Translations under genes and position numbers: made by a program
From: an uncultured Acidobacteriota bacterium
GTDB taxonomy: Bacteria > Acidobacteriota > Polarisedimenticolia > JACPZX01
Assembly: GCA_964568735.1 (NCBI GenBank)
Contig: CAZMRF010000003.1
Span: 36,454 to 100,453 of the forward strand
Reading direction: 5' to 3'
DNA: 64,000 nt
Shown here: positions 9,609 to 52,935 of the stretch, piece by piece
How positions within the stretch are numbered: the first letter of the stretch is position 1
Layout of the letters: each line of letters begins with the position of its first letter
The notes under the pieces: generated by a model
The model's input: only the letters and a program-made list of their open reading frames with translations
Databases searched by the model: none
What the model was told of the DNA's origin: nothing

Positions 9609-9620
9609 GGTCTCCCTCCC

Positions 9621-13250
<3,630 letters not shown>

Positions 13251-15712: not shown

Positions 15713-15813
15713 TTGTTTTGATTTTACTAACAAATAGCAAATCCTGCAACCTGGCGGAAACGCCCTCGAATCACCTTCTGGAATGGCCTCCAGTGTAAAA
15801 GGATGGGGGGAGG

Positions 15814-15960
15814 GTCAGTCAGTTCGCTGGGTGGGGCTGGAGGCCGTAGGTGAAGGCAGCCACGTGCGCGACCTCTTCGTCGGTGAGGATGTCCGTCTGG
15901 TAGAAGGGCATCGGGTCCTTCCCCGCGCGGATCAGGTCGGCGATCTCCCCGGGGGTCATC
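15814..15960. repeat. Copy 2 of the about 145-bp direct repeat (3' end of the intact diheme cytochrome gene)
   Basis: Near-identical to 13691-13833 (95-nt perfectly identical core). Confidence 0.7.
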
Positions 15961-16709
15961 GCGGAGACCGTGAGGTCGGAACCGAGGCCGGTGCCGCCGC
16001 CAGGGTGGCATCCCGCGCAGGCGCGATGGAAGAGTTCGCGTCCCTGCTCCGGATCTCCCGAGCTCGTCTCGACGCGCCCCGGAGGAGAGCGGCGGATGAC
16101 GAAGGGGGAGGCGTAGGGTGCGGCGAGGCTCATCATGTACTCGACCAGCCTCGTCCGCATCAGCCCGGTCATCTCGGTTCCGCCCATGAAGCGCTTCAGG
16201 CAGACCTCTCCCGCCTCGCCGCTGTCGGTCATGATCCGGCCGTTCCACCAGTTCCCGCGGCCTGCGGCGTCGTAGACGGTGTGGCCGGTCCGGATCAGGT
16301 CGTCCGGAGGGGAAGCGCCCGGTGGCGTGACCAGGTGGCAGTCGGCACAGGCGATCCGCGTGGGGGTCTCGTCGCGGCTGAAGAAGATCGCCTCCCCGCG
16401 GCTGTCCACCTTCGAGCCGGGATCGTGACGTGGAGGCCGGGGCCGCGGCGTCGCCATCTCCGGCCGCTGCGCTTCCTCAGAGGCGGCTCCCGTCTCGGAG
16501 ACTCTGACCGGCGGGTCGGTGCCGGGCGACGGTTCGGTGGAATCCTCGGTAGGAGTCTCACCTGCCAGCATAGATGCCGGGCTTCCGACAGGGCGCATCG
16601 CCCCGGGGGCGCTGAGCAGCACAGCGAGAACGCCCAGGGCGGAGACGAACAGGGTGCGTCCCGCGCGTCGATTCGCGTGCCGGCCGGGTGAGCGTGGGGT
16701 GCCGAACAC
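15819..16709 (-). CDS. Diheme c-type cytochrome, secreted
   Basis: Two CxxCH motifs (CADCH, CAGCH). Probable GTG start at 16707-16709 (VFGTPRSPGRHANRRAGRTLFVSALGVLAVLLSAPGA signal-like region) with a GGAG 8 nt upstream; the track ORF extends to 16904. C-terminus duplicated at 13691-13865. Confidence 0.65.
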   Translation of the reverse strand: MFGTPRSPGRHANRRAGRTLFVSALGVLAVLLSAPGAMRPVGSPASMLAGETPTEDSTEPSPGTDPPVRVSETGAASEEAQRPEMATPRPRPPRHDPGSKVDSRGEAIFFSRDETPTRIACADCHLVTPPGASPPDDLIRTGHTVYDAAGRGNWWNGRIMTDSGEAGEVCLKRFMGGTEMTGLMRTRLVEYMMSLAAPYASPFVIRRSPPGRVETSSGDPEQGRELFHRACAGCHPGGGTGLGSDLTVSAMTPGEIADLIRAGKDPMPFYQTDILTDEEVAHVAAFTYGLQPHPAN

Positions 16710-16840
16710 TTGTGAGTCTCCGTTTCCAGGGTACGTGACTGCTGCCTGCCACGTTCGACGTGGCCATCGCCTGCAGAGTCTCTCTTCCGGGAGGAGGGCC
16801 CTGGTGGCGACCCCCGCAATGTAGAAACTGCCGTGCCGGC

Positions 16841-18808: not shown

Positions 18809-18848
18809 GGCTGCCTCGGAGTTCACCCGGGGCCGGCCTGCGTGCCGG

Positions 18849-20936
18849 CTATCCCCCCGCCTTCTCCCGGTGTGAGTCCCAGTAGAGCCCCGCCGCCAGG
18901 AGGAGGAAGGCCATCAGGCCGAGCCAGTTCCCCCAGACTGAGAGGAAACCGCCCAGCCCCAGGGCCCCGATCCCCGTCAGGTCGGGGACGATGGAGACCC
19001 TCCACGAGTCCTCGATGAATCGCAGCAGCGCCGCAAGGACGCCGACGAGCGCGCCGCCGGCGATGAAGCCCGAGGCGATGAGCGTGCCCTTCTCGTGCCG
19101 TGCCTTGCCGAGGATGTTGTCCTTCGAGGAGTGCTCCAGGAAGTGCGCCACCACCGCCCCGAGGACCAGGGGTGAGTTCAGCTCCATGGGGAGATACATC
19201 CCGAGGGCGAAGGCCAGCCCCGACACCTTGCACAGCTCGGCTGATACCGCGAAGACGGCGCCGATGGCATAGAGGAACCACGGCGCGCCGCCGGTTCCCA
19301 TGACGCCGCGGAGAACGGCCGCCATCGCGTTCGGCTGCGGCGCCGGCAGCGCGTTGGGGTGGGCGGCGTCGGCCGAGAAGCCGTAGACGTGCGCCATCAG
19401 GAGGATGACCAGCGTCGTTCCGGCGGAGGCCGTGATCGCCCCGACGATGTTGGAGATCTCGACCTGGCGCGGCGTCGCCCCGAGCCAGTAGGAGATCTTG
19501 TACTGCGTGACGAGCGACCCGCTCATGGAGAGGGCCGTGCAGACGACGCCCCCGATCAGGAGGACCTGGAGCATCCCGCCATCGCCGCTGAGACCCATCG
19601 CTGAGAGTAAAACCGCCGTCACGATGAGGGTCGTGATGGTCATCCCGGAGACGGGGGTTATGGAGATCATGGCGATGGCCCAGGCCGAGACCGACGCGAA
19701 GAGGAAGGCGATGACCAGGGTCATCACCGCGGAGACCAGCGCGATGGTCGTGGCGTTCGCCTCTCCGGCGAGAACCGAGAAGCGGAAGTAGAGGAAGATC
19801 ACGGCACCCGTGGCGAGGATCCCTCCGATGCTCACCGACATGGGCAGGGAGCGTTCGGTGCGGACGTCCTGCGCCAGGGCGCTCTCTCCACGGATGAGCC
19901 GGGCCACCTCGCCGAAGGCCTGGCGCGTCGCCTGCACGATGATGGGCGACATCTTGATGATCGACAGCAGGCCGGCGCAGAAGATCCCGCCGATGCCGAT
20001 CGGCCTCACGTACTGCGCGAAGATCTGCGCCGGCGCGAGCTGCGAGAGGGGCTGGGCCCCGTCCGAGATCGCGCCGGGGATGAACTGCCCGAGGTGCGCG
20101 AAGAGAGGCACCAGCACGAAGAAGGAGACCATGGAGCCCGCGAAGATGATGCAGGCGTACTTCAGCCCCATGATGTAGCCGAGGCCCAGGACGGCGGCCG
20201 AGGTGTTCATCGTGAAGACGGCCTTGTACTTGCTCGTGAAGCCGGCCAGGGCGGAGATGCTCGCGGTGGAGAAGACGTCGGCCCAGGCGCGCATGGAGGA
20301 GCTGAGGAAGTCGAACATGGCCGCGATGACCGCCGAGTAGGTCAGGACCACCGCGCTCTGGCCCCCGCGCTTTCCGGCGACGAGGATCTCGGTCGTCGCG
20401 CGCGCCTCGGGGTAGGGGAGCTTGCCGTGGAGGTCGCGCACGAAGTAGCGGCGGAACGGGGAGAGGATGAAGACGCCGAGGATCGCGCCGAGGAGCGGCA
20501 CGAGGAAGATCTGGAAGAGCGACGATCGGCCCTGCAGCCCGAGGATGTAAATCGCGGGCATGGTGAAGACGGAGCCCCCGGCGATGATCCCCGACGTGGC
20601 TCCGATGGCGAGGACGTTCACGTTCTCCAAGAGGGTCGAGGAGCGCGAGCGGAGGAACTTGACGGCGAGGACCGAGAAGCCGACGGCGAGGATCGAGATC
20701 GGGATCGCCGACTCGATCCCCTGGCCGAGCTTCAGGGCGATGTAGGTGGCCGCCGCCGAAAACACGATCGACCAGAAGAACCCCTGGACGATCGACCTGA
20801 GAGTGACCTCGGGAGGCGCCTGGTCGGGGCGGACGACGGGCTGGTAGGTCTCGCCCGGCTTCAGCTCGCGGAAGGCGGTTTCCGGAAGCCGCACATCCTC
20901 CAGATCAGGGGCCGTGCCGGTGTCTCCGGGCTTCAT
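18849..20936 (-). CDS. OPT-family oligopeptide transporter (integral membrane, about 16 TMs)
   Basis: 695 aa from ATG 20934-20936 (MKPGDTGTAPDLEDV...). Highly hydrophobic with the OPT-family architecture. The track ORF begins 45 codons upstream with no support. Confidence 0.85.
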   Translation of the reverse strand: MKPGDTGTAPDLEDVRLPETAFRELKPGETYQPVVRPDQAPPEVTLRSIVQGFFWSIVFSAAATYIALKLGQGIESAIPISILAVGFSVLAVKFLRSRSSTLLENVNVLAIGATSGIIAGGSVFTMPAIYILGLQGRSSLFQIFLVPLLGAILGVFILSPFRRYFVRDLHGKLPYPEARATTEILVAGKRGGQSAVVLTYSAVIAAMFDFLSSSMRAWADVFSTASISALAGFTSKYKAVFTMNTSAAVLGLGYIMGLKYACIIFAGSMVSFFVLVPLFAHLGQFIPGAISDGAQPLSQLAPAQIFAQYVRPIGIGGIFCAGLLSIIKMSPIIVQATRQAFGEVARLIRGESALAQDVRTERSLPMSVSIGGILATGAVIFLYFRFSVLAGEANATTIALVSAVMTLVIAFLFASVSAWAIAMISITPVSGMTITTLIVTAVLLSAMGLSGDGGMLQVLLIGGVVCTALSMSGSLVTQYKISYWLGATPRQVEISNIVGAITASAGTTLVILLMAHVYGFSADAAHPNALPAPQPNAMAAVLRGVMGTGGAPWFLYAIGAVFAVSAELCKVSGLAFALGMYLPMELNSPLVLGAVVAHFLEHSSKDNILGKARHEKGTLIASGFIAGGALVGVLAALLRFIEDSWRVSIVPDLTGIGALGLGGFLSVWGNWLGLMAFLLLAAGLYWDSHREKAGG

Positions 20937-20982
20937 GGGCACGCTCCTCCCTCCCTCATCGGAAGCCTCCTCCCCGTGCCGA

Positions 20983-22782
20983 TCAGGACGCGGAAGGCGC
21001 CTGATCCGGGTACTTGGCGATGATCGATTCGACGACCCGGCGCGACAGGCTGTGGTACGAGCGGCCCGCAACCTCGAAGATCTGCCGCGCGAGGTCCCGC
21101 GTTCGTGGATGCTTCCCCAGCGCCGTGTAGAGCGGCCTGATGTATTTCATCCGGCCGACGCGCGTCAGCACTTCCCGGATGCGCGGGAAGACCGGCTCGT
21201 AGTCCGAGGCGGCCGCGATCGTCAGCCACTCGACCAGGATCTCGTAGTTGCCCCGGCCCGTGAGCGACAGGTTCGCGTCGAGCCACTCGCAGGAGGCGCG
21301 GTCCACCGGCCTCTGGAGGCGTTGCAGGTAGATGAGGGTCTCGCTGGGGCTCCAGCCTGCAATCTGGCTCTTCGATGGCCGCGCCCCCGAGGGCCAACCC
21401 TCGGCCAGGTGCGTCAGGTCTTCCAGTGACTTCGACTGGAAGACCGGCGCGTTGGAGGGCATGCCCGGCTCGTGGAGCCACCGGCGGACCTCGGCCTGAG
21501 CCGACACACCGGGGATCTCGGCATCCAGGAAGGCGAGCCACTCCTCGGACGTGATGGAGGTGAAGCGGAAGCGGGCGATGTAGCGGCGCATGAAGCGGTC
21601 GAAGCGCTCGCGGCCGGCCGTCCTCTCGACCAGCGCCAGGAGCCGCGAGCCCTTCTCGTAGGGAATCGACGAGAAAGCGTCGTCCGGGTCCACTCCCTTC
21701 AGCTCCGTGCGGAGCCGCGTGAGGGGCGAGTCGGCGCCGAAGCGCTCCATCTCGCTGTCGAGGGCCTTCTGCCCGATGGCCCAGGAGAGCACCGCGGCCT
21801 CCGGGCCGTGCAGCGCCTCCTGTATCCGCCTCTCGGCCCAGACGGTCGACCCCTCGTTGAGCCAGAAGTGATCCATCGTGGCGTTGGTCACGATGTTGCC
21901 CGTCCAGGAGTGGGCCAGCTCGTGGGCGACCACGTCCACGAGCGACCGGTCACCCGCCAGGAGCGTCGGCGTCAGGAAGGTCATCCGGGGGTTCTCCATT
22001 CCGCCGTAGGGGAAGGACGGCGGGAGGACCAGCATGTCGAAGCGGTCCCACTCGTAGGGGCCGAAGAGGGCCTCCGCCTTGACGATCATCTCCTCGATGC
22101 CGGAGAACTCCCAGGCGGCGGCATCGACCGTCTCCGGCTCGGCCCAGACCCGCGAGCGCTTGCTGAGGTCCTTCGAGCGCAGGTTCCCGACCGCCAGCGC
22201 CACCAGGTACGAGGGGATCGCCTGCGGCATCTCGAAGAGAAAGGTGCTGGTCCCGGCCTTCGGCCCGGGCCGCTTCCCCGCCGGGCCCGCAGACATCACG
22301 GCCGCCAGCGGCTCCGGCACCGTGACCTCGGCCTGGTACGTCACGCGGACGGCCGGCGAGTCCTGGATGGGCACCATCGTCCGCGCGTGTATCGCCTGGC
22401 ACTGGCTGAAGAGGAAGGGATGCTTCTTCCCCTCGGTCTGTGCGGGGGTCAGCCACTGCAGAGCCACGGCCTCCGGGGAGGTCGTGTAGTCGAGGACCAC
22501 GGCGTCGGTGCTGGCCGGCAGGTGCAGCCTCAAACGGCGCCCGAAGATCGGCTCTTCGTCGCCGAGCTCGTGCGGCACCTCGGCGCCCGCTTTCGTCCGG
22601 ACGGATCGGATCGTCAATCCCTTGGTATCGAGATCCATCGTGCCGGCCGAAGGGGCGGCTAGATCGAGAACTGCGCGACCCTCCAGGACCCGCCGCTCGA
22701 AGTCCACGTCGAGCGTCAGGCGCAGGTGCTTCGTCCGGGGTTGATCCGTGTCGAAGTACGAGTGGGGGTCGAGGCAGGCCAT
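20983..22782 (-). CDS. M1-family aminopeptidase (LTA4H-like), cytosolic paralog of 16841..18808
   Basis: 599 aa, no signal peptide. HELAHSWTGNIVT...WLNEG zinc motif. Shares blocks 'LQWLTPAQTEGKKHPFLFSQCQAIHARTMVPIQDSP' with the secreted paralog. Confidence 0.85.
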   Translation of the reverse strand: MACLDPHSYFDTDQPRTKHLRLTLDVDFERRVLEGRAVLDLAAPSAGTMDLDTKGLTIRSVRTKAGAEVPHELGDEEPIFGRRLRLHLPASTDAVVLDYTTSPEAVALQWLTPAQTEGKKHPFLFSQCQAIHARTMVPIQDSPAVRVTYQAEVTVPEPLAAVMSAGPAGKRPGPKAGTSTFLFEMPQAIPSYLVALAVGNLRSKDLSKRSRVWAEPETVDAAAWEFSGIEEMIVKAEALFGPYEWDRFDMLVLPPSFPYGGMENPRMTFLTPTLLAGDRSLVDVVAHELAHSWTGNIVTNATMDHFWLNEGSTVWAERRIQEALHGPEAAVLSWAIGQKALDSEMERFGADSPLTRLRTELKGVDPDDAFSSIPYEKGSRLLALVERTAGRERFDRFMRRYIARFRFTSITSEEWLAFLDAEIPGVSAQAEVRRWLHEPGMPSNAPVFQSKSLEDLTHLAEGWPSGARPSKSQIAGWSPSETLIYLQRLQRPVDRASCEWLDANLSLTGRGNYEILVEWLTIAAASDYEPVFPRIREVLTRVGRMKYIRPLYTALGKHPRTRDLARQIFEVAGRSYHSLSRRVVESIIAKYPDQAPSAS

Positions 22783-27208: not shown

Positions 27209-40111
<12,903 letters not shown>

Positions 40112-40206
40112 GTGCGGGACCTCCATGGCCGGTCGCTGAGCCCAGGCGCGAGTGCGAGGCATCGCTCCCGTTGTGGGCCCGGCATGCGGAGCGTGGTGCA
40201 AGCCGG

Positions 40207-40233
40207 ATTGTACGACCAAATGAATGCGCTCAA
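40207..40233 (-). promoter_or_regulatory. Weak candidate sigma70 promoter for the giant gene (-35 TTGAGC, 15-nt spacer, -10 TACAAT)
   Basis: Minus-strand 'TTGAGCgcattcatttggtcgTACAATcc' in an AT-richer stretch about 100 nt upstream of ATG 40111. Spacer is short. Confidence 0.2.
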
Positions 40234-41501: not shown

Positions 41502-43340
41502 GTGCGAAAACCCTTCCGCGAGATCCTGAAAGACACCATCGTCGTCTTCGACGGAGCGATGGGCACCGAGCTGTATGCTCGCGGTGTCTTCATCAACAAG
41601 TGCTACGACGAGCTGAACCTCTCCAACCCCAGGCTCGTCTCCGACGTCCACCGCGACTACAGGAAGGCCGGTGCCGACGTCCTCGAGACCAACACCTTCG
41701 GGGCCAACCGCTTCAAGCTGGGCGGGCACGGCTTCGGCGAGAAGACCGCCGAGATCAACAAGGCTGGAGCCCGGATCGCCAGGGAGATCGCCGGGGAAGA
41801 CCTCTACGTGGCCGGCTCCGTCGGCCCCCTGGGGCTCAAGATCGAGCCGTGGGGGCCGACGTCGATCCAGGAGGCGAGGGCGGCCTTCTCTGAGCAGGTC
41901 CAGGCGCTGGTCGAAGGCGGTGTGGACCTGATCTCGATCGAGACGATCTCGGATCTCAGCGAGATGCACCAGGCGATCCTCGCCGTCCAGGATCACTGCG
42001 ACCTGCCCATCGTGGCGCAGATGACGGTGGACGAGGACGGCCTGAGCCTCTACGGAACGGAGCCCGAGGTCTTCACCGCGAGGATCGACGAGTGGGGTGC
42101 CGACATGATCGGCGTCAACTGCTCGGTGGGGCCGCACGCGATCCTGGGCGCCCTCGAGCGGGTCGCGCGAGCCACCGAGAAGCCGCTCATCGTCCAGCCC
42201 AACGCAGGGACGCCGCGCAACGTCGACGGCCGCAACATCTACCTGTGCTCGCCCGAGTACATGGGCAGCTACGCCCGCCGCTTCATCCTCGCGGGAGCCA
42301 AGGCGGTCGGAGGCTGCTGCGGGACGACCCCCGATCACATCCGGCACATCGTGAAGTCGGTCCGGATGTTGCGGCCGGCGCAGCGCCACGTCGCCATCTT
42401 CGTGCCCAAGGACGAGAGCCAGGGCGTCGAGCCGGTGGTCCTGCGCGAGAAGTCGAACCTCGCCCGCAAGATCGTCGATGGCGAGTTCGTCACCTCCGTG
42501 GAGCTGCTCCCACCGAAGGGCATCTCGTCGGCCAAGGTCCTCGAGGCGGGCTGCCTCCTCAAGCAGAAGGGCGTCGACGCCGTCAACATCCCCGACGGCG
42601 CGCGCGCCACCGCCCGGATGGGCGCGATGTTCCTTGCGCTCCAGATGGTGCGCGAGGCCGGGATCGAGCCGATCCTCCACTACTGCTGCCGCGACCGGAA
42701 CCTGATCGGGATGCAGGGCGATCTCCTCGGCCTCTACGCCAGCGGGCTGCGCAACATCCTGATCATCACCGGCGATCCCCCCAAGCTGGGAGACTACCCC
42801 GACGCGACGGCGGTCTTCGACGTGGATGCCATCGGGCTGACCAACATGGTCACGCGCCTCAACCACGGGCTCGACCTCGGGGGCACGCCCATCGGGAAGC
42901 CCACCGGGTACTTCGTGGGTGTCGGGGCCAACCCCGGCGCGATGGACATCGCCTACGAGCTGAAGCGCTTCCGCTACAAGGTCGAGGCCGGGGCGGAGTT
43001 CGCCGTCACCCAGCCCGTCTTCGACGTCGAGCAGATCAAGAGCTTCCTCGAGGCCGTGCGCGGCCACAGGATCCCGGTCATCGCCGGCATCTGGCCCCTG
43101 GCCTCCCTGCGCAACGCCGAGTTCATGCGCAACGAGGTCCCCGGCGTCGTCGTGCCCGACCACGTCATGGAACGGATGCGGAAGGCCGACGCCGAGGGGA
43201 AGGGAAAGGAGGAGGGCGGCCTCATCGCTCGAGAGACCCTCGAGGAGCTGAGGCCCCTGATCCAGGGAGTGCAGGTCTCCGCCCCCTTCGGGAAGGTCCA
43301 GGGCGCCCTCGACGTCCTCAAGGTCGTCGGGATCGGCTAG
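41502..43340 (+). CDS. Bifunctional homocysteine S-methyltransferase (MetH N-domain-like) / 5,10-methylenetetrahydrofolate reductase (MetF) fusion
   Basis: N-half 'VFDGAMGTELY...GADVLETNTFGAN...GVNCSVGP' (Hcy-binding pterin-like barrel, Zn Cys ligands in 'GGCCGTTP'). C-half 'SVELLPPKG...MVTRLNHGLDLGG...AVTQPVFD' of the MTHFR family. Confidence 0.85.
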   Translation: MRKPFREILKDTIVVFDGAMGTELYARGVFINKCYDELNLSNPRLVSDVHRDYRKAGADVLETNTFGANRFKLGGHGFGEKTAEINKAGARIAREIAGEDLYVAGSVGPLGLKIEPWGPTSIQEARAAFSEQVQALVEGGVDLISIETISDLSEMHQAILAVQDHCDLPIVAQMTVDEDGLSLYGTEPEVFTARIDEWGADMIGVNCSVGPHAILGALERVARATEKPLIVQPNAGTPRNVDGRNIYLCSPEYMGSYARRFILAGAKAVGGCCGTTPDHIRHIVKSVRMLRPAQRHVAIFVPKDESQGVEPVVLREKSNLARKIVDGEFVTSVELLPPKGISSAKVLEAGCLLKQKGVDAVNIPDGARATARMGAMFLALQMVREAGIEPILHYCCRDRNLIGMQGDLLGLYASGLRNILIITGDPPKLGDYPDATAVFDVDAIGLTNMVTRLNHGLDLGGTPIGKPTGYFVGVGANPGAMDIAYELKRFRYKVEAGAEFAVTQPVFDVEQIKSFLEAVRGHRIPVIAGIWPLASLRNAEFMRNEVPGVVVPDHVMERMRKADAEGKGKEEGGLIARETLEELRPLIQGVQVSAPFGKVQGALDVLKVVGIG

Positions 43341-44032: not shown

Positions 44033-44710
44033 ATGAAAAAAGGCCAGGTTTCCTTCGCCATCGCGGGCCTCATCTTCGGCTTCCTCGTGGGCTTCGTCGT
44101 GTCCCATCAGGTGTATGTGGGGAGGGGCGTCCCCGCCTTCGAGCACCCTCCGATGCCCGGCGGGATGACCGCGGGCGGGGGGCCGATGGGAGCGGGGTCG
44201 GCCGGACTCCGGGGCCAGGGTCAGGAGGGTGCGCCGGCGCCGGCGCCGGAAGGCGGGGCTCCCGACATGGCCACCATGGAGGGGGTCCAGAAGGAGATCG
44301 CCGGGCTCAAGGCGACTCTCGAGAAGGAGCCGCGGAACACCGAATCTCTCAGCCGTCTCGGGGACCTCTACTTCGACGCTGGCATGTTCGACGGGGCCAT
44401 CGGCTACTACGAGAAGGCGCTCGAGATCGAGCCGGGCAACGTCCTGGTGCGGACGGATCTGGGGACCTCTCTCCGGCGCACGGGCCACCCGGACCGGGCC
44501 ATGAAGGAGTTCGAGGCGGCCGTGCAGGCCGACCCGTCGCACTGGCGGGGCTGGTTCAACATCGGCGTCGTCGCCCTCTACGACCTCGGGCAGTACGATC
44601 GGGCCGAGGAGGCCTTCGCCAAAGTGGACGACCTGAACCCGGGCTCGATCGACATGACGGCCCTTCAGACGGAGATCAAGCGCGTGCGGGCCGAAGGAGC
44701 CGGCGGATGA
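44033..44710 (+). CDS. Membrane-anchored TPR-repeat protein (N-terminal TM, Gly/Pro/Ala-rich linker, 3-4 TPRs)
   Basis: MKKGQVSFAIAGLIFGFLVGFVV TM helix. TPR motifs 'LGDLYFDAGMFDGAIGYYEKALEIEPGN...'. Stop overlaps the aldolase start (ATGA). Confidence 0.7.
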   Translation: MKKGQVSFAIAGLIFGFLVGFVVSHQVYVGRGVPAFEHPPMPGGMTAGGGPMGAGSAGLRGQGQEGAPAPAPEGGAPDMATMEGVQKEIAGLKATLEKEPRNTESLSRLGDLYFDAGMFDGAIGYYEKALEIEPGNVLVRTDLGTSLRRTGHPDRAMKEFEAAVQADPSHWRGWFNIGVVALYDLGQYDRAEEAFAKVDDLNPGSIDMTALQTEIKRVRAEGAGG

Positions 44711-45492
44711 CCTCGCGCTCCGAGCACCAGCTCCGCAAGGACATCTGCGAGGTCGGCCGCCGCATGTACCAGAAGGGGTTCATCGCAGCCAACGACGGCA
44801 ACATCTCGGCGCGCATGGACAACGGCAACGTGCTCCTCACGCCCTCGGCGACGAACAAGGGACGGCTCGACGAGGAGGACCTGGTCGTCACCGACATGCA
44901 TGGAGTCCGCCTCTACGGCCGGAAGGAGCCCTCCAGCGAGCTTCCGATGCACCTCGTCGTCTACAGGGAGCGGCCCGACGTGAGGGCCGTCGTGCACGCC
45001 CACCCGCCCTACGCCACGGGATTCTCGGTGGCGGGAGTTCCACTCGACAAGCCTCTCATCTCCGAGGTCGTGCTCACGCTGGGCACCGTCCCGCTCGCGG
45101 AGTACGGAACGCCGACGACGCCGGAGCTCGCGGAGGCGATCGAGCCCTACGTGCGCGAGCACGACGCGATCCTGATGGCGAACCACGGCGCGATGACTTC
45201 GGGCCCCGATCTCTTCACGGCCTACGACCGGATGGAGACGCTGGACCATTTCGCGCACATCTGGCTCGTGGCCCGCATCATGGGCACGGAGCGATCGCTC
45301 TCCGCGGAAAACGTTGCCAAGCTCAAGGCTATCCGCGAGCGGACGCACTTCGAGCCGCCTGTGGATGCCTGCTTCACCTGTCCCATTCTCGATGAGAAGA
45401 TGAAGTCGGCCGGCGGCGGGAAGATCCAGCTCACGCGCGAGCAGCTCGTCGACCTCGTCGCCGACGTGGTCAGGGGCCTGGACGTTGCCTGA
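44707..45492 (+). CDS. Class II aldolase/adducin-family protein (L-fuculose-/rhamnulose-phosphate aldolase-like) with a C-terminal encapsulation-peptide-like extension
   Basis: '[18 protein letters not shown]', '[11 protein letters not shown]', 'ANHGAMTSG' (Zn-binding His of class II aldolases). About 45-aa C-terminal extension '[29 protein letters not shown]' (flexible linker plus amphipathic helix). The 654-aa track ORF 43528..45492 is an artefact. Confidence 0.85.
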
Positions 45493-45524
45493 GGATCCTC
45501 ATGAAGGATAAGGAAGGAGCCGTA

Positions 45525-45809
45525 ATGGGCGAAGCGCTGGGTATGGTGGAGACCCGCGGCCTCGTGGCGATGATCGAGGCCGCGGACGCGATGGTGAAGG
45601 CGGCGAAGGTCACCCTGGTCGGCTACGAGAAGATCGGGTCGGGCCTCGTAACGGTCCTGGTCCGGGGCGACGTCGCGGCGTGCAAGGCCGCGACGGACGC
45701 CGGCGCGGCCGCGGCTCGCAAGGTCGGAGAGCTCGTCTCCGTCCACGTGATCCCGAGGCCTCACGCCAGCCTCGAGGACAGGCTTCCCATCGGGAAGACC
45801 GCGAGGTAG
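45525..45809 (+). CDS. Bacterial microcompartment hexamer shell protein (BMC-H; PduA/EutM/CcmK family)
   Basis: [80 protein letters not shown], very similar to PduA. GGAAGGAG RBS 6 nt upstream of ATG 45525 (the track ORF starts at 45501). Confidence 0.9.
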
Positions 45810-45845
45810 CCCGGCGGACGGGCGGCTCGCGAGCGCAGGTCCCGA

Positions 45846-46136
45846 ATGTTTCTGGCCCGGGTTGTCGGAACGGTCGTCGCCACGCGGAAGGACGACCGCC
45901 TCGAAGGGTGCAAGCTGCTGGTCGTCCAGCCTGTCGACGAGACGGGCAAGGACGAGGGGCGGTGCGTGGTTGCTGTGGACACGGTCTCGGCCGGCAACCG
46001 CGAGGTGGTCCTCGTCGTCAGCGGATCTTCGGCGCGCATGACCACGCGCACGAAAGACTCCCCGGTGGATGCCGCCATCGTGGGCATCGTGGACACCGTC
46101 GCGATCGACGATGCGGCTCCATGGGGCACGCCGTGA
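45846..46136 (+). CDS. BMC vertex pentamer protein (BMC-P; EutN/CcmL/PduN family), paralog 1
   Basis: MFLARVVGTVVATRKDDRLEGCKLLVVQP...VVAVDTVSAGNREVVLVVSGSSAR...AIVGIVD, canonical EutN/CcmL fold signature. Confidence 0.85.
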   Translation: MFLARVVGTVVATRKDDRLEGCKLLVVQPVDETGKDEGRCVVAVDTVSAGNREVVLVVSGSSARMTTRTKDSPVDAAIVGIVDTVAIDDAAPWGTP

Positions 46137-46429
46137 ACCTCGGCCGCGTCGTGGGCCGCGTCGTCTCCAGTCATAAAGATGCCGGCCTGACCGGCCGGAA
46201 GATCCTGATCATCCAGCCGCTCGGCGCGGATCTCTCCGCGCGGGGGTCGACCATCGTCGCCGCCGACGCGGTGGGGGCCGGGGCGGGTGAGACGGTCATC
46301 TGGGTGCGGGGCCGCGAGGCCGCCCATGCCTTCCTGCCCGACGAGGTGCCTGTGGATGCGGGCGTCGTCGGGATCGTGGACGAGGCCTACGTGGACGAGA
46401 GCGCAGGCAGGCGGAGCCCATCGCGGTGA
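46133..46429 (+). CDS. BMC-P vertex protein, paralog 2
   Basis: (V/M)NLGRVVGRVVSSHKDAGLTGRKILIIQP...IVAADAVGAGAGETVIWVRGREAA...GVVGIVD. GTG 46133 overlaps the paralog-1 stop (GTGA); an alternative ATG at 46121 would add MGHA. Confidence 0.8.
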   Translation: MNLGRVVGRVVSSHKDAGLTGRKILIIQPLGADLSARGSTIVAADAVGAGAGETVIWVRGREAAHAFLPDEVPVDAGVVGIVDEAYVDESAGRRSPSR

Positions 46430-46716
46430 TCCTCGCACGGGTCATCGGCAACGTCGTCGCCACCAGGAAGCACGACGCCTTCCACTCCTTCAAGCTCATG
46501 CTCGTGCGCCCCGTGGGTGTTGACGGCGGCGACGCCGGCGACGAGTTCATGGCGGCGGACGGCGTGGGGGCCGGGCCCGGGGAGACGGTCCTCGTCGTGG
46601 TGGAGGGGCGGTCGGCGGGCCAGGCCCTCCGCAAGGAGCGGGCGCCGCTCGATGCCGCCATCGTCGGGATTGTCGATCGGATCGACTGCGACACCCAGGA
46701 GCATCGCCGGCCATGA
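46426..46716 (+). CDS. BMC-P vertex protein, paralog 3
   Basis: (V/M)ILARVIGNVVATRKHDAFHSFKLMLVRP...FMAADGVGAGPGETVLVVVEGRSAGQ...AIVGIVD. GTG start overlapping the previous stop (GTGA). Confidence 0.85.
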   Translation: MILARVIGNVVATRKHDAFHSFKLMLVRPVGVDGGDAGDEFMAADGVGAGPGETVLVVVEGRSAGQALRKERAPLDAAIVGIVDRIDCDTQEHRRP

Positions 46717-46752
46717 CCCCCATCGGCCAGGGAGCCGGATCCTCGTGCTGCG

Positions 46753-47097
46753 ATGAGAATGAAGCTCGGCACGTTGCCTGACGGGCGCAGGCCGCCAGGT
46801 GCCGGGGAGCTCATCCCCCCCGGCTGGGTCGGCCTCCCCGCGGACGGGAAGGAGGCCGCCGGCGCCGCGCGCCGCGAGGAGCCCGCCGCCGGGGCTGCGC
46901 GCGATCGGATCGCGCGGGCGCTCGGGGAGGCGCTGGCGCCCGGCGTCATGCCGGCGCGCTCCGTGATAGCTTCGATCGACTCCGCCGTGCGCGAGCACGT
47001 GAGCCCCATCACTCCATGGGGTGAGCGCTCTGCCTGCATCATCGAGCCCGGCAAGCCCTGCCGCGGAAGCGGGCGCTGCCGGGAAAGAGGGTACTGA
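46753..47097 (+). CDS. Hypothetical small protein (114 aa) between the BMC-P genes and the large TPR gene
   Basis: ORF only. Pro/Ala/Arg-rich N-half and a Cys-containing tail (ACIIEPGKPCRGSGRC). Codon usage is weakly protein-like. Stop is 6 nt before the next ATG. Confidence 0.3.
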   Translation: MRMKLGTLPDGRRPPGAGELIPPGWVGLPADGKEAAGAARREEPAAGAARDRIARALGEALAPGVMPARSVIASIDSAVREHVSPITPWGERSACIIEPGKPCRGSGRCRERGY

Positions 47098-47102
47098 CGA
47101 GG

Positions 47103-49181
47103 ATGGACGACAAGCGAATCCAGAGTCTCCTGGAGCTGGCGGGATCCGAGTACAACCAGGGGAAGTACGCCGAGGCCATCGAGCACTGGCAGGAGATCCT
47201 GAGCCTGGATCCCGAGAACCAGAAGGCCCGCGAGGGGATTCGCATGGCGAAGCTCCTCGTCGTGAACTGGGAGTCGTCCCAGGCCGGCGGGGAGGAGCTG
47301 ATGCTCGATACCGGGGGCGTCGACCCGGAGACGCAGCAGAAGATCGAGTTCGGGATCGCGCGCGTCAGGGAGCTCCTGACCTCGGGACGCCACAAGGAGG
47401 CGATGGAAGGCTGCCAGCTCCTCGCCGAGCTCGCGCCGGGGATGCCCTCCGTCACTCAGCTCCAGGAGGAGATTGCCCACGCGATCGAGGTGCAGCCCTA
47501 CATCGGGGAGCATCTCGGGCGGGCGCGCAAGCTGATCGCCGCCGGCAAGGGAGGCGAGGCCGTAGAGGAGGCCCGGAAGGTCCTCTCGGTGGATCCAGGA
47601 AACCCCGAGGCGCAGGGCATCGTCAGCAAGGGGCGCGGAACGGCTGCGCCCGGGGCGAGCCCCTCCGCCTTCGACAAGGAGGGCCATCCCGCGCCGCCTT
47701 CACCCTTCGCGGGGAGCAGCAAGGCCGACGAGATGATGGCGAGCATGGACCTCGGGCAGCACGGGGGAGGGCGCGCAGGCGACGCGGCCGGCGAGGAATC
47801 GCCCATCGAGATGGAGTTCGAGGAGGTCAGCTCGCACGCCCCCTCGCCGGGAGCCGGGAGCGACGGAAAGGTGGCCCGCATGCTGGAGCAGGGGCGCGGG
47901 CTCTTCGCCCAGAAGAAGTACCAGGAGGCCATCGATGTCTGGTCGCGGGTCTTCACCCTCGACGAATCGAACGTCGAGGCGGGCAACCTGATCGACCAGG
48001 CCAATGCCCGCATCGCCGAGATCGTCAGCAAGGTCGAGGACGCGATGTACCGGGCGCAGGACCAGGTCGATGCCGGGAATCTGGCGGGCGCCAAGAAAGT
48101 CTTCGAGGAGGTTCTCTCCATCCAGCCCGGGAACCGGGAAGCCCTCGACAGGATCGCGAAGATCGACGAGCAGCTCTCGGGGCCCGACCTCGGCGAGGCC
48201 ATCCCGATGGCGGCCAGCCAGCCGGGGACGGGCGCGGAGGCCGCGCCGGAGGCCGGAGCCGGAGAACGAGCCGGCAAGTCCCAGTCCTCGGAGGCTTTCC
48301 GTGCGGCTCCCGGAATTCGAGCCGCCTCACCGCAGCGAGCCGCCTCGTCGTCGGGCGCGGCGGGGATCTTCAAGAAGAAGCCCGTCGTCCCCATACCGCC
48401 TGCGGGCGGGTCGGGCCGCACCGCCGTCGTCTCAGCGCTCGTGGTGATCGTCCTCGGTGGAGCGGCGGCCGGCTGGTGGTTCCTCATGGGCACGGGAGCG
48501 GAGGCGCCTGAAGAGATCGGGCCGCCACCCGAAGCCTCGGCCGGGCTGCCTGGGGCCACGCCGACCACCAAGGAACCCGAAAAGCCGGGCTCCGCCGCCG
48601 GCCCCGGATCGGCCGAGGCAGGAGTCGCGCCGCAGCAGAAGCAGCCGGCCCAGCCCGCCGATCCTGCCGCCGTGCAGAAACAGATCGCCTCCTTGATGAG
48701 AGAGGGGAGAGATCTCCTGGGGCAGAAGCAGTACACCGAGGCACATTCCCGCTTCAAGGAGGTTCTCGCTCTCGATGTCTCCAACTTCGACGCGGAAGAG
48801 CTGCGGCTGAAGGCCTCGGCGGGAATGGCCGAGGAGGCCCGCTTCAACAAGGATCTCGAGTCGGCCAGGGCCGCCTTCGAGGATCAGGACTGGGCTTCGT
48901 CGCTCTACAAGCTCTACAGGCTGCAGCAGGAGCGCGAGGACATGACCATCCTCAAGCGCTACATCGCGAATGCGAACCACAACTGGGGTGTGCAGGATCT
49001 GGAGGCGTTCCGCCTGACGGAAGCGCTCGAGCACTTCCAGGACGCTCTGGAGCAGCTTCCTGACGACCGGGCGACCCAGCAACACATCAACGTCGTGCAG
49101 CGCTACGAGAAGCGCCGGCGCGATCCCGCCTTCGACGCCTACATCGCCAAGCTGAAGCTGAGGGCCCTCGACGCGCGCTGA
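47103..49181 (+). CDS. Large TPR-repeat protein with a central transmembrane helix (692 aa)
   Basis: N-terminal TPRs (YNQGKYAEAIEHWQEILSLDPEN...), an acidic/Pro-Ala-rich low-complexity region, a TM segment 'TAVVSALVVIVLGGAAAGWWFLMG', then C-terminal TPR/coiled-coil repeats. AGGATGG start context. Confidence 0.7.
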   Translation: MDDKRIQSLLELAGSEYNQGKYAEAIEHWQEILSLDPENQKAREGIRMAKLLVVNWESSQAGGEELMLDTGGVDPETQQKIEFGIARVRELLTSGRHKEAMEGCQLLAELAPGMPSVTQLQEEIAHAIEVQPYIGEHLGRARKLIAAGKGGEAVEEARKVLSVDPGNPEAQGIVSKGRGTAAPGASPSAFDKEGHPAPPSPFAGSSKADEMMASMDLGQHGGGRAGDAAGEESPIEMEFEEVSSHAPSPGAGSDGKVARMLEQGRGLFAQKKYQEAIDVWSRVFTLDESNVEAGNLIDQANARIAEIVSKVEDAMYRAQDQVDAGNLAGAKKVFEEVLSIQPGNREALDRIAKIDEQLSGPDLGEAIPMAASQPGTGAEAAPEAGAGERAGKSQSSEAFRAAPGIRAASPQRAASSSGAAGIFKKKPVVPIPPAGGSGRTAVVSALVVIVLGGAAAGWWFLMGTGAEAPEEIGPPPEASAGLPGATPTTKEPEKPGSAAGPGSAEAGVAPQQKQPAQPADPAAVQKQIASLMREGRDLLGQKQYTEAHSRFKEVLALDVSNFDAEELRLKASAGMAEEARFNKDLESARAAFEDQDWASSLYKLYRLQQEREDMTILKRYIANANHNWGVQDLEAFRLTEALEHFQDALEQLPDDRATQQHINVVQRYEKRRRDPAFDAYIAKLKLRALDAR

Positions 49182-51685: not shown

Positions 51686-52315
51686 CTACTCGGGCATGGC
51701 CTCGAGCGGCAGGGCCATGTTGCCCTCCTCCTCGAGGTAGCGGCGCAGGCGGACCACCATGAGATGCCGGTTGTTGACGACCTGGGGGTTGACCTCCGCG
51801 TTCAGGAGATTCGGCTGGAGGGAGACCGCCTTGAGGTACATCTCGATCGCCTCGTCGTAATCCCCCTCGTCGTCGTGGATCACGCCCATGTTGTACCAGG
51901 CCAGGGCATAGCGGGGGTTGGCGTCGGTGGACTTGCGGAAGGCGCTCATGGCGTCGCCGGGGCGGCCCAGCTTCATGTAGGCGGTGCCCAGGTTGTTCCA
52001 GGCGATGTAGGAGGCCGGGTCGAGCTTGAGGGTCTTCTTGTACTCCGCCACGGCCTCCTCCATCCAGTTCCTCAGGACGTAGAGGTTCGCGAGGTTGTTG
52101 TGCAGTGCCGGGTTGTCGGGCTCCGTGGCGAGCCTCAACCGGTAAGTGACGACCGGATCGCGTGCAGCGTTCTCGTCGAAGAGCGAATCGGCGCTGACCA
52201 CGACAGCCTCGGAGCCGTCGGTGACCGGGCGCACCTCCCTGCCGGAGGAGCAGCCGGGAATGACGGCGAGGATGAGAAGGGCAGCGAGACGGGAGCCTGC
52301 GAGCCTGGCGGTCAT
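51686..52315 (-). CDS. TPR-repeat lipoprotein
   Basis: ATG 52313-52315 (MTARLAGSRLAALLILAVIPGCSSG lipobox). TPRs 'LANLYVLRNWMEEAVAEYKKTLKLDPASYIAWNNLGTAYMKLGRPGDAMSAFRKS...'. Confidence 0.65.
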   Translation of the reverse strand: MTARLAGSRLAALLILAVIPGCSSGREVRPVTDGSEAVVVSADSLFDENAARDPVVTYRLRLATEPDNPALHNNLANLYVLRNWMEEAVAEYKKTLKLDPASYIAWNNLGTAYMKLGRPGDAMSAFRKSTDANPRYALAWYNMGVIHDDEGDYDEAIEMYLKAVSLQPNLLNAEVNPQVVNNRHLMVVRLRRYLEEEGNMALPLEAMPE

Positions 52316-52935
52316 TATTTCTTCTTCTTGATGGGAGAGGCCCTGAGCGCCACGGCCCCCTCCTTGAGGACGATGGAGTAGGAGACCTGGTCGCACCCTG
52401 ACTTCTCCTTGATCGTGGCCGTCTTCTGGGCGATCAGCCTGAGGAAGGTGGAGTACGAAACGTCCGAGCCGGCACCCTGAGTCCGGCGCGCCTCCACGTA
52501 GTTGTCGTAGAAGGTCTTGAAGGTGTCATTCTCTGACGTGGGATCCCCGAACCTGGACTTGTAGATGACCCGGCCGTCGCCGGCTCCGGACTTCGACGCC
52601 TCCTCGGGAGCCTGCTGCCCGGCCTGGGACGCGGCCGAGGAGCGACCCACGCCGGGCCGGTAGCCCTCCTCCCGCATCCTCAGGAGCTTCATCCACAGCT
52701 CGCGGTAGGTCTGGTACTTGCCCGCGAGGGTGTTGTACCGGTACCGGTCCGAGAACCGCTGCATCGACGTGCGGCCCAGCCGGTCGACGAGTCCCTCGAC
52801 CTCCTTGCGGGTCTCGAAGGGCTGGCGCGGAGCGGCGCCTGCGAAGAAGATGTCGTACTGCTGCTTGAGCTGGCGGATCATCACCTCGAGCCGGTTGAGG
52901 TCCTCCTCCAGCGGGGTAGGGGCGACCTGGGCCAT
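52315..52935 (-). CDS. Hypothetical cytoplasmic protein (206 aa), Lys-rich C-terminus
   Basis: ATG 52933-52935 (MAQVAPTPLEEDLNRLEVMIRQLKQQYDIFFAG...). Its stop overlaps the TPR lipoprotein start. The track ORF over-extends 45 codons. Confidence 0.5.
   Translation of the reverse strand: MAQVAPTPLEEDLNRLEVMIRQLKQQYDIFFAGAAPRQPFETRKEVEGLVDRLGRTSMQRFSDRYRYNTLAGKYQTYRELWMKLLRMREEGYRPGVGRSSAASQAGQQAPEEASKSGAGDGRVIYKSRFGDPTSENDTFKTFYDNYVEARRTQGAGSDVSYSTFLRLIAQKTATIKEKSGCDQVSYSIVLKEGAVALRASPIKKKK

What the first reader, a model, noticed from the sequence alone, without database searches (positions are those of the whole stretch)
44033..49181. Compact aldolase-associated bacterial microcompartment (BMC) mini-locus bracketed by two membrane-anchored TPR proteins
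Directly visible: one PduA-like BMC-H gene and three consecutive BMC-P (EutN/CcmL) genes sit immediately downstream of a class II aldolase, in one tightly overlapping operon (ATGA, GTGA, GTGA junctions). The operon opens with a TM-anchored TPR protein and is followed by a small ORF and a 692-aa TPR protein with a central TM helix. No aldehyde dehydrogenase, phosphotransacylase (PduL/Pta), BMC-T or alcohol dehydrogenase gene exists anywhere in the 64 kb. Established knowledge: a class II aldolase and three BMC-P genes with few BMC-H genes are the hallmark of Planctomycetes/Verrucomicrobia-type (PVM) sugar-phosphate metabolosomes (fucose/rhamnose to lactaldehyde plus DHAP), but those loci also carry the signature aldehyde dehydrogenase. 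Inference: this is either a satellite shell locus whose core enzymes lie elsewhere, or a minimal and uncharacterised BMC type whose only co-encoded cargo is the aldolase. Tethering by the flanking membrane TPR proteins is a speculative but testable idea.
Basis: partly seen in the sequence, partly recalled or inferred. Interest (0 to 1): 0.8.

Follow-up and report, generated by a model that had tools for sequence, protein, structure and literature searches.

The report
Acidobacterial aldolase microcompartment locus (ACI-like)
This is a real protein-shelled organelle operon of a type already catalogued in Acidobacteria (ACI), whose missing aldehyde dehydrogenase is normally encoded elsewhere; its only unusual feature is that membrane-anchored TPR genes travel with it.

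Summary
Eight co-directional, tightly packed genes at 44033-49181 encode a membrane-anchored TPR protein, a class II aldolase, one BMC-H, three BMC-P, a small Cys3 protein and a 692-aa bitopic TPR protein. No aldehyde dehydrogenase, PduL, alcohol dehydrogenase or BMC-T lies anywhere in the 64 kb.

The interpretation needs correcting. This is not a PVM satellite or an uncatalogued minimal type. It best matches the ACI type of Sutter et al. 2021: an aldolase with a C-terminal encapsulation peptide, one BMC-H, an adjacent BMC-P triplet, a short Cys3 protein, an acidobacterial host, and an aldehyde dehydrogenase "consistently" on a satellite locus. It differs in lacking the ACI 2-hydroxyacid dehydrogenase.

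The same aldolase-H-P-P-P core recurs in many Acidobacteriota contigs. None of them has an aldehyde dehydrogenase within 10 kb.

The TPR story is mixed:
- TPR1 precedes this aldolase in several divergent lineages. In relatives a small membrane-anchored protein with a YHS metal-binding domain often accompanies it.
- TPR2 is clade-restricted.
- One related contig keeps TPR1 and TPR2 side by side with no microcompartment genes between them.
- TPR1's repeat domain is probably periplasmic.

Tethering therefore remains speculative. Verdict: a new variant of a known but functionally uncharacterised kind, of moderate interest.

The parts
44033..44710 (+). TPR1: 225-aa protein with an N-terminal transmembrane anchor (residues 6-24), a Gly/Pro/Met-rich linker and about 3 TPR units. 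Its stop overlaps the aldolase start (ATGA).
   Evidence: Pfam TPR_2/TPR_19/TPR_16, E about 1e-18, and TPR_CcmH_CycH at 36.8 bits, below its cut-off. KD19 2.39. Orthologues lie upstream of the aldolase in L003-7, L009, L012, L013, L093, L094, L096, L097 and L099-L101, L104. Distant ones (24-30% identity) do so in L106, L107 and L011.
44707..45492 (+). Class II (zinc-type) aldolase, 261 aa. Catalytic domain at residues 12-187, a variable linker containing a conserved Cys, then a C-terminal amphipathic helix that is the putative encapsulation peptide.
   Evidence: PF00596, E 6e-50. No NCBIfam equivalog cut-off is reached; the best are OtnC at 145/250 bits and FucA at 122/264 bits. The nearest solved structure is 6btd, E 3e-26. 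Invariant DGN, TP, SSE, HAH and NHG columns in 39 homologues.
45433..45483 (+). Putative encapsulation peptide of the aldolase, residues 243-259 ([17 protein letters not shown]).
   Evidence: The motif LT(R/K)x(E/Q)Lxx(L)Ixx(A/V)V is present in 39/39 homologues. L247 is invariant and T243 and L250 are at least 90% conserved. AF2 predicts a helix at 244-260 after a low-confidence linker. Hydrophobic moment 0.64, joint highest in the protein.
45501..45809 (+). BMC-H hexamer shell protein (102 aa) of PduA/EutM/HO-5815 type, with KAAK, GSG pore and PRPH motifs.
   Evidence: PF00936, E 2e-30. NCBIfam EutM at 147 bits against a cut-off of 133. PDB matches: EutM 3mpw E 2e-39, PduA 3ngk E 5e-38, HO-5815 5djb E 1e-35. 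Motifs were read from the sequence.
45846..46136 (+). BMC-P pentamer, paralogue 1 (96 aa).
   Evidence: PF03319, E 4e-32. PDB 5v74 BMC-P, E 4e-20. Best-matches the first BMC-P of related loci (62-86% identity) and falls in its own cross-phylum clade.
46133..46429 (+). BMC-P pentamer, paralogue 2 (98 aa from the GTG start; an alternative ATG lies at 46121).
   Evidence: PF03319, E 4e-27. PDB E 3e-14. Positional orthology at 47-77% against 34-53% to the other paralogues.
46426..46716 (+). BMC-P pentamer, paralogue 3 (96 aa, GTG start).
   Evidence: PF03319, E 1e-27. PDB E 8e-14. Positional orthology.
46753..47097 (+). Small Cys3 protein (114 aa as the longest ORF). It has the motif IPPxWVGL, an amphipathic helix SVIASIDSAV, and the C-terminal motif C-x7-C-x5-C ...RGY.
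   Evidence: No Pfam or NCBIfam family. Only 8 representatives among 1.84 billion proteins at E <= 1e-3. C95, C103 and C109 are invariant in 11 sequences. A homologue sits directly after BMC-P3 in L003-5 and in the TPR-less acidobacterial locus L010, where it carries a classical N-terminal amphipathic helix, EALIEQIVRRVLHRLEE.
47103..49181 (+). TPR2: 692-aa bitopic protein. The N-terminal ~440 aa holds TPR units and is predicted cytoplasmic. One transmembrane helix lies at 442-460. A conserved ~170-aa C-terminal domain is predicted periplasmic.
   Evidence: Pfam TPR_2, E 9e-25. Alignment A1 shows conserved N- and C-terminal domains, a WWF transmembrane segment and a K/R cluster before that segment in all 5 sequences. 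Only 24 homologues were found, on the same contigs as aldolase relatives. An orthologue lies next to TPR1 without microcompartment genes in L092.

Best explanation
The region is the main locus of an ACI-type (or ACI-like) metabolosome in an uncultured Acidobacteriota genome related to Ca. Polarisedimenticolia.

Shown:
- One PduA/EutM-like BMC-H would tile the shell facets.
- Three anciently diverged BMC-P paralogues would cap the vertices.
- The co-encoded cargo is a class II aldolase that keeps all metal- and phosphate-binding residues and carries a conserved C-terminal amphipathic helix of the kind that targets enzymes into shells.
- A narrow-family Cys3 mini-protein follows the shell genes.

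Inferred:
- The aldolase cleaves a ketose-1-phosphate inside the shell to DHAP plus a short aldehyde.
- An acylating aldehyde dehydrogenase encoded at a separate (satellite) locus consumes that aldehyde, as described for ACI.
- The substrate is unknown, as it is for ACI.

The TPR genes:
- TPR1 is a recurrent accessory of this aldolase family and probably works at the membrane or periplasm.
- TPR2 is a clade-specific neighbour.
- Neither is demonstrated to touch the shell.
For: Components:
- Domain assignments.
- The encapsulation peptide is conserved in 39/39 homologues and is predicted helical and amphipathic.
- Cys3 protein: three invariant Cys, and a position directly after BMC-P3 that is kept across a 52%-identity divergence.
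- The BMC-P1/P2/P3 order and orthology are kept in acidobacterial loci, and the three fall in separate cross-phylum clades.

Taxon:
- Named relatives are Acidobacteriota / Polarisedimenticolia / Blastocatellia.
- The 78%-identical homologue MBI3448726.1 is from an 'Acidobacteria bacterium'. Its PurH is seven accession numbers away on the same 178-kb contig.

Wider pattern:
- The same aldolase-H-P-P-P core occurs in L003-L007, L009, L010, L012, L017, L018, L022, L093-L104 and L106.
- None of the acidobacterial-type loci checked (L003-L018, L022) has a PduP-like dehydrogenase within 10 kb, while 20 non-acidobacterial loci do.
Against: - The ACI main locus is described as also holding a 2-hydroxyacid dehydrogenase and two further unknown proteins. 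No PF00389/PF02826 gene exists in the 64 kb.
- ACI was reported mainly from subdivisions 4 and 6, whereas this lineage is nearer Polarisedimenticolia.
- I could not compare with reference ACI sequences or HMMs, so the assignment rests on the published description.
- The existence of a satellite aldehyde dehydrogenase in this genome is untested.
- TPR and YHS proteins are not mentioned in the catalogue (0 hits for 'TPR'; no such HMM).
Confidence: 0.72

Rival explanations
1. PVM or PVM-like fucose/rhamnose metabolosome fragment: a satellite shell locus of a Planctomycetes/Verrucomicrobia-type microcompartment.
For: PVM also combines a PF00596 aldolase (PvmN) with three distinct BMC-P proteins, PvmH/K/M. 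One 78%-identical aldolase is labelled 'Verrucomicrobiae bacterium'.
Against: - That label sits on a 4-kb contig. The same 90% cluster holds an 'Acidobacteria bacterium' protein on a 178-kb syntenic contig.
- All other named relatives are Acidobacteriota.
- PVM loci carry the dehydrogenase, PTAC and acetate kinase with the shell genes. Here none lies within 64 kb, and none lies within 10 kb in any of the acidobacterial relatives checked.
Confidence: 0.04
2. A self-sufficient 'aldolase-only' microcompartment: no aldehyde dehydrogenase exists anywhere in the genome, and the shell merely confines the aldolase reaction. In catalogue terms this would be a BMC of unknown function.
For: No dehydrogenase lies in the 64 kb or within 10 kb in any of the acidobacterial-type loci checked. 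The compact core recurs without other enzymes. The catalogue says the satellite dehydrogenase is found in 'most', not all, ACI genomes.
Against: Absence from 20-64 kb says nothing about the rest of a multi-megabase genome. The closest described type does have a dedicated dehydrogenase with an encapsulation peptide elsewhere. An aldehyde-producing enzyme without an aldehyde sink inside the shell has no precedent among characterised metabolosomes (established knowledge).
Confidence: 0.12
3. Membrane-coupled microcompartment: TPR1 (with a YHS protein in relatives) and TPR2 form an inner-membrane module. The cytoplasmic parts (TPR2 N-terminal ~440 aa; the YHS domain) dock the shell or its cargo. 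The periplasmic TPR domains link it to the envelope.
For: - TPR1 lies immediately upstream of this aldolase family, often with overlapping stop and start. This holds in the window clade and in three further lineages of very different G+C content: L106 0.61, L107 0.50, L011 0.43.
- These lineages are interleaved with TPR-less lineages on the aldolase tree.
- A TM+YHS-like mini-protein sits between TPR1 and the aldolase in at least 9 loci and is fused to TPR1 in L012.
- The TPR1-core-TPR2 block survives changes of both flanks: window versus L009 versus L006.
- Charge distribution places TPR2's large N-terminal TPR region in the cytoplasm.
Against: - L092 keeps TPR1 and TPR2 adjacent in the same synteny with no aldolase or shell genes between them. 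It branches outside the microcompartment-bearing clade on a PurH tree. The bracketing can therefore be explained by a cassette inserted into, or deleted from, a resident TPR pair.
- TPR1's repeat domain is most likely periplasmic. The L012 fusion places it between two transmembrane helices, with the strongly basic side after the second.
- Many acidobacterial loci with the same core lack both TPR genes: L010, L014-17, L022.
- No interaction evidence of any kind exists.
Confidence: 0.15
4. The TPR genes are functionally unrelated envelope proteins. The microcompartment cassette merely landed between two resident TPR genes and is co-transcribed with them.
For: The L092 arrangement. TPR proteins are abundant here, with another TPR gene at 51686-52396. 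TPR2 is restricted to one clade.
Against: This does not explain the repeated TPR1-aldolase adjacency in distant lineages, including L011 where no shell genes are nearby. It also does not explain the 4-bp translational coupling.
Confidence: 0.3

Closest known systems
ACI-type bacterial microcompartment (Sutter et al. 2021, Nat Commun 12:3809; 125 loci, function unknown)
   Same: - PF00596 aldolase with a C-terminal encapsulation peptide.
- A single standard BMC-H.
- Three adjacent BMC-P paralogues.
- A very short protein with three conserved cysteines.
- An acidobacterial host.
- No aldehyde dehydrogenase in the main locus.
   Different: - No 2-hydroxyacid dehydrogenase.
- The other two 'unknown' ACI proteins cannot be identified.
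- The lineage is nearer Ca. Polarisedimenticolia than subdivisions 4 and 6.
- Membrane-anchored TPR1 and TPR2 (and YHS in relatives) are part of the operon and are not described for ACI.
- The window's Cys3 protein lacks an obvious N-terminal encapsulation peptide, although its L010 homologue has one.
HO (Haliangium ochraceum) type, and the MIC3 and MUF2 satellite loci that pair a PF00596 aldolase with BMC-P or BMC-H genes
   Same: The aldolase is adjacent to BMC-P genes away from the aldehyde dehydrogenase. The BMC-P triplet is present. The catalogue states that the ACI aldolase is most similar to those of HO and MIC3. BMC-H and BMC-P match the solved HO shell proteins: 5djb E 1e-35, 5v74 E 4e-20.
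   Different: These types occur in Deltaproteobacteria, Planctomycetes and Gemmatimonadetes. Their main loci carry the dehydrogenase plus BMC-T proteins. MIC3 aldolases lack encapsulation peptides.
PVM fucose/rhamnose metabolosome (Erbilgin et al. 2014)
   Same: A class II aldolase as aldehyde generator plus three distinct BMC-P proteins. The likely chemistry is the same: ketose-1-phosphate to DHAP plus an aldehyde.
   Different: PVM keeps the dehydrogenase, PTAC, acetate kinase and other enzymes in the same locus. It is found in Planctomycetes and Verrucomicrobia. None of those genes is present here.

Membership tests
ACI-type BMC locus | PF00596 class II aldolase carrying a C-terminal encapsulation peptide | tested here: met
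   PF00596, E 6e-50. A C-terminal LTRxELxxLI helix is conserved in 39/39 homologues, predicted helical at 244-260, with hydrophobic moment 0.64.
ACI-type BMC locus | [quoted passage not shown] | tested here: met
   PF00936, E 2e-30. KAAK and PRPH motifs were read from the sequence. EutM, PduA and HO-5815 are the best PDB matches.
ACI-type BMC locus | A BMC-P triplet encoded side by side, one from each of three major clades (green/grey/orange) | tested here: met
   Three adjacent PF03319 genes. Each best-matches the same-position paralogue in other loci. They fall in three separate clades shared with Bacillota, Coatesbacteria and other triplets (NJ tree). The catalogue's colour names themselves could not be assigned because no reference sequences were available.
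ACI-type BMC locus | 2-hydroxyacid dehydrogenase (PF00389/PF02826) in the main locus | tested here: not met
   No such domain in any scanned ORF of the 64-kb window.
ACI-type BMC locus | [quoted passage not shown] | tested here: inconclusive
   The small ORF family is 72-125 aa long with invariant C95, C103 and C109. The L010 homologue has a classical N-terminal amphipathic helix. The window protein instead has an IPPxWVGL motif and an internal amphipathic helix. No ACI reference sequence was available. The TM+YHS mini-protein found in relatives is an alternative candidate for the catalogue's description.
ACI-type BMC locus | Two further proteins without known homologues (one with three conserved histidines) | not testable with these tools
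   The catalogue gives no sequences or names in the held text.
ACI-type BMC locus | Aldehyde dehydrogenase absent from the main locus and present on a satellite locus | tested here: inconclusive
   Absence is shown for the 64-kb window and for 10-kb flanks of the acidobacterial relatives checked, with 20 positive controls elsewhere. The presence of a satellite copy in this genome cannot be examined from one window.
ACI-type BMC locus | Host belongs to Acidobacteria | tested here: met
   Named aldolase relatives are Acidobacteriota, Ca. Polarisedimenticolia and Blastocatellia. A syntenic 178-kb contig is labelled 'Acidobacteria bacterium'. This is inferred from relatives; the window's own record name was not retrievable.
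PVM / PVM-like BMC locus | Aldehyde dehydrogenase, phosphotransacylase and acetate kinase co-located with the aldolase and shell genes | tested here: not met
   None is present in the window.
HO-type BMC locus | [quoted passage not shown] | tested here: not met
   There is only one BMC-domain gene, no tandem BMC gene and no dehydrogenase.
Class II aldolase/adducin superfamily (FucA-like metal-dependent enzymes) | Three His metal ligands, a catalytic Glu, and phosphate-binding Asn/Thr/Ser motifs | tested here: met
   Invariant N32, T45, S76/S77-E78, H97, H99 and H160 in 39 homologues. They align with the fuculose-phosphate aldolase 6btd. Substrate specificity is unassigned because no NCBIfam equivalog cut-off is reached.

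The most novel reading that the evidence does not exclude
In this branch of Acidobacteriota the ACI-like microcompartment works with a dedicated inner-membrane module. The module comprises TPR1, a YHS metal-binding mini-protein in many relatives, and the bitopic TPR2. It would anchor the organelle to the membrane, or hand it a metal or substrate. That would be the first genetically hard-wired link between a metabolosome and the cell envelope.
Probability: 0.15. Interest if true: 0.75.

Novelty: new variant of a known kind. Interest (0 to 1): 0.4.

Why it matters
ACI is one of the largest microcompartment types with no known substrate or experimental model, and it sits in a phylum that dominates many soils and sediments.

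This compact eight-gene version has one cargo enzyme with a clear targeting helix, four shell genes and one Cys3 mini-protein. It would be a convenient minimal construct for shell assembly, for encapsulation tests and for finding the aldolase substrate.

The repeated pairing of the aldolase with membrane-anchored TPR and YHS proteins is not in the published catalogue. It gives a concrete, testable lead on how the organelle might connect to the envelope or to metal supply. If the pairing proves incidental, the locus is simply another ACI-like member.

Tried and rejected
- **Reaching beyond the window.** Exact-protein look-ups for two window-edge proteins and for TPR2 were not on record. Neither the rest of the 131-kb contig nor its accession could be read.
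- **Taxonomy from PurH.** The source names were truncated. This was partly rescued through cluster members.
- **Nearest reference genome.** The nearest GTDB species representative shares only 63% aldolase identity.
- **BMC-P clades from solved structures.** PDB searches could not tell the three BMC-P clades apart, because all three hit the same pentamers.
- **Operon signals.** The promoter and terminator scan was uninformative in this 68% G+C DNA: 0 promoters, and the terminator-like sites were at chance level and on the wrong strand.
- **Cys-motif search.** The first regular-expression search was too strict and had to be redone.
- **Catalogue encapsulation-peptide HMMs.** The stored part of the file has no ACI-labelled model, so the catalogue's own classifiers could not be run.
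- **Literature.** Searches found no experimental work on ACI and no report of TPR or YHS proteins in microcompartment loci.
- **PVM reading.** Considered and rejected; see the rival explanations.
- **Query provenance.** I rely on it only because it recovered 20 clear positive controls.
- **Trees.** The NJ trees are single-gene, midpoint-rooted and unbootstrapped, so they are indicative only.

Full report
**1. What is in the sequence**

The window is about 68% G+C throughout. Between 44033 and 49181 there are eight genes on the + strand:

| Gene | Coordinates | Size |
|---|---|---|
| TPR1 | 44033-44710 | 225 aa |
| Class II aldolase | 44707-45492 | 261 aa |
| BMC-H | 45501-45809 | 102 aa |
| BMC-P1 | 45846-46136 | 96 aa |
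| BMC-P2 | 46133-46429 | 98 aa |
| BMC-P3 | 46426-46716 | 96 aa |
| Small ORF | 46753-47097 | 114 aa |
| TPR2 | 47103-49181 | 692 aa |

Pfam gives Aldolase_II at E 6e-50, BMC at E 2e-30, and EutN_CcmL at E 4e-32, 4e-27 and 1e-27. Both flanking proteins hit many TPR families.

The shell proteins match solved shell components. BMC-H matches EutM, PduA and HO-5815 at E 1e-35 to 2e-39. The three BMC-P proteins match the HO pentamer 5v74 and CcmL/EutN.

Hydropathy confirms one strong transmembrane helix in each TPR protein.

The operon is bracketed by opposite-strand DoxX and PurH, so nothing outside the window can belong to the same transcript.

**2. What is not in the window**

I scanned essentially every GC3-supported ORF of the 64 kb with Pfam. 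The neighbours are housekeeping or unrelated:
- a D12 methyltransferase;
- a homocysteine S-methyltransferase/MTHFR fusion;
- PurH, SelA, YchF and UvrA;
- a pyruvate:ferredoxin oxidoreductase;
- M1 peptidases and an OPT transporter;
- an AbiE toxin-antitoxin pair;
- a 4336-aa RHS protein.

There is no aldehyde dehydrogenase, PduL, Fe- or Zn-alcohol dehydrogenase, 2-hydroxyacid dehydrogenase or second BMC-domain gene. Six-frame tblastn agrees. The PduP-type query finds nothing in the window, but it finds a dehydrogenase next to shell genes in 20 non-acidobacterial loci.

**3. What the cargo looks like**

The aldolase keeps the metal ligands and phosphate-binding residues of FucA-like enzymes. 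The invariant columns are N32, T45, S76/S77-E78, H97, H99 and H160 in 39 homologues, and they align to 6btd.

It reaches no NCBIfam equivalog cut-off, so the substrate is open.

After the catalytic domain come a variable linker and a C-terminal helix, [17 protein letters not shown]. This helix is present in all 39 homologues, is predicted helical by AlphaFold2 and is strongly amphipathic. It has the form of an encapsulation peptide.

**4. The small ORF is a real gene**

A full HMMER pass over 1.84 billion representatives finds only eight relatives. With the copies from L003 and L010 they share three invariant cysteines in a terminal C-x7-C-x5-C...RGY motif.

The homologue in the TPR-less acidobacterial locus L010 sits in the same position after BMC-P3. 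It starts with a textbook amphipathic helix.

**5. Relatives and host**

The exact aldolase occurs only on short metagenome contigs and on NCBI contigs of 131 kb and 64 kb.

Named relatives are Acidobacteriota, Ca. Polarisedimenticolia and Blastocatellia. The nearest GTDB representative is an Acidobacteriota MAG at 63% identity.

A 78%-identical protein, MBI3448726.1, is from an 'Acidobacteria bacterium'. It lies on a 178-kb contig whose PurH is seven accession numbers away, the spacing expected for the same gene order.

The core aldolase-H-P1-P2-P3 recurs, with positional orthology of the three pentamers, in many loci. The three pentamers belong to three clades shared across phyla.

**6. Comparison with what is known**

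Sutter et al. 2021 (PMC8217296) define ACI (125 loci, only Acidobacteria) by these features:
- a PF00596 aldolase with a C-terminal encapsulation peptide;
- a 2-hydroxyacid dehydrogenase;
- a BMC-P triplet and at least one BMC-H;
- three unknown proteins, including a ~80-aa one with an N-terminal encapsulation peptide and three conserved cysteines;

The window meets the aldolase, BMC-H, triplet, host and no-local-dehydrogenase features. It plausibly meets the Cys3-protein feature. It fails the hydroxyacid-dehydrogenase feature.

PVM, HO, MIC3 and MUF2 share pieces of this layout. They differ in host and in having the dehydrogenase, BMC-T or both in the main locus.

I therefore file the locus as an ACI-like variant rather than a new type. 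The 'missing' dehydrogenase is the expected state for this type, not an anomaly. No experimental study of ACI was found.

**7. The TPR proteins**

Evidence that TPR1 is linked to the aldolase:
- TPR1 orthologues (40-70% identity) lie directly upstream of the aldolase in every member of the window's clade whose contig extends far enough.
- Distant TPR1 homologues (24-30% identity, same anchor-linker-TPR layout) precede related aldolases in L106, L107 and L011. These contigs have G+C of 0.61, 0.50 and 0.43. In L011 there are no shell genes nearby.
- On an aldolase tree these lineages are interleaved with TPR-less ones.
- In at least nine loci a small TM+YHS-like protein lies between TPR1 and the aldolase. 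It is fused to TPR1 in L012 and stands alone upstream of the aldolase in L018.

So TPR1, and often YHS, is a recurrent accessory of this aldolase family.

Evidence against the tether idea:
- The L012 fusion places the TPR domain between two transmembrane helices, with the strongly basic face after the second. That puts TPR1's repeats in the periplasm and the YHS domain in the cytoplasm.
- TPR2 has few homologues, all on contigs of the same clade.
- Contig L092 keeps the same synteny: ABC transporter, then TPR1-like, TPR2-like, PurH ... SelA, YchF. It has TPR1 and TPR2 orthologues 195 bp apart and no aldolase or shell genes.
- L092 branches outside the microcompartment-bearing clade on a PurH tree.
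- Other acidobacterial loci carry the same core with neither TPR gene.

TPR2's N-terminal ~440 residues are predicted cytoplasmic by the conserved K/R cluster before the helix. Contact with a shell is therefore topologically possible, but nothing tests it.

**8. Verdict**

- The PVM/minimal-type interpretation is replaced by an ACI-like main locus whose dehydrogenase is expected elsewhere.
- The compact core is common in Acidobacteriota.
- The recurrent TPR1/YHS membrane accessory is the one feature not in the catalogue. It is worth a modest follow-up.
- Confidence in the ACI-like assignment is about 0.7. The main gaps are that I had no access to reference ACI sequences or to the rest of this genome.

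Noticed in passing
window 27209-40219 (-): A giant 4336-aa ORF combines at least 8 MopE-like Cys-rich 'Cu-binding' motifs, RHS/YD repeats, a DUF6531, a weak N-terminal contractile-injection tube hit and, unusually, VgrG/gp5-like domains (Phage_GPD, Phage_base_V) at the C-terminal end.
   Followed up: no
L009, L013, L094, L097, L100, L101, L104, L106 (between TPR1 and the aldolase); L012 8858-9916 (fused to TPR1); L018 27-287: A ~90-130-aa protein with an N-terminal transmembrane helix and a YHS-like Cys motif (VRDxVCNTyvP...yFCSeeCR). PF04945 scores 29.8 bits in L018, just under its cut-off. It recurs immediately upstream of the encapsulation-peptide-bearing aldolase. It is absent from the window itself.
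   Followed up: partly
L092 9152-12526: A related high-G+C contig has TPR1 and TPR2 orthologues adjacent in the same synteny but no microcompartment cassette. The same contig carries a 704-aa class II aldolase-short-chain dehydrogenase fusion at 15391-17505.
   Followed up: partly
L006/L007 12034-12195: In place of the small Cys3 gene, the spacer between BMC-P3 and TPR2 holds 8.5 tandem copies of a 19-bp unit, CCTGAAGGCTCAAGGCTGC, with 95% matches.
   Followed up: no
L011 9363-11892: On a low-G+C (0.43) 1.9-Mb contig, a TPR1-like gene overlaps an encapsulation-peptide-bearing aldolase. It is followed by a secreted coiled-coil-like 202-aa protein and a 78-aa Lys/Glu-rich protein, with no shell genes within 10 kb.
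   Followed up: no
window 13926-15733 (-): An AbiEii nucleotidyltransferase toxin (E 1.5e-29) with an AbiEi-like antitoxin: a type IV toxin-antitoxin pair.
   Followed up: no
window 8574-13667 (-): A 1348-aa single-chain pyruvate:ferredoxin oxidoreductase lies next to a dihydroorotate-dehydrogenase-like protein.
   Followed up: no
window 16760-22782: Two paralogous M1/leukotriene-A4-hydrolase-type peptidases on opposite strands flank an OPT oligopeptide transporter.
   Followed up: no
window 41502-43340 (+): A homocysteine S-methyltransferase domain is fused to a methylenetetrahydrofolate reductase domain in one 612-aa protein. This fusion is conserved upstream of the locus in L003 and L093.
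   Followed up: no
L010 9171-9869: In a TPR-less acidobacterial locus with the same core, a Rex-type redox-sensing regulator (Put_DNA-bind_N + CoA_binding) sits directly upstream of the aldolase. This hints at NAD(H)-linked control.
   Followed up: no
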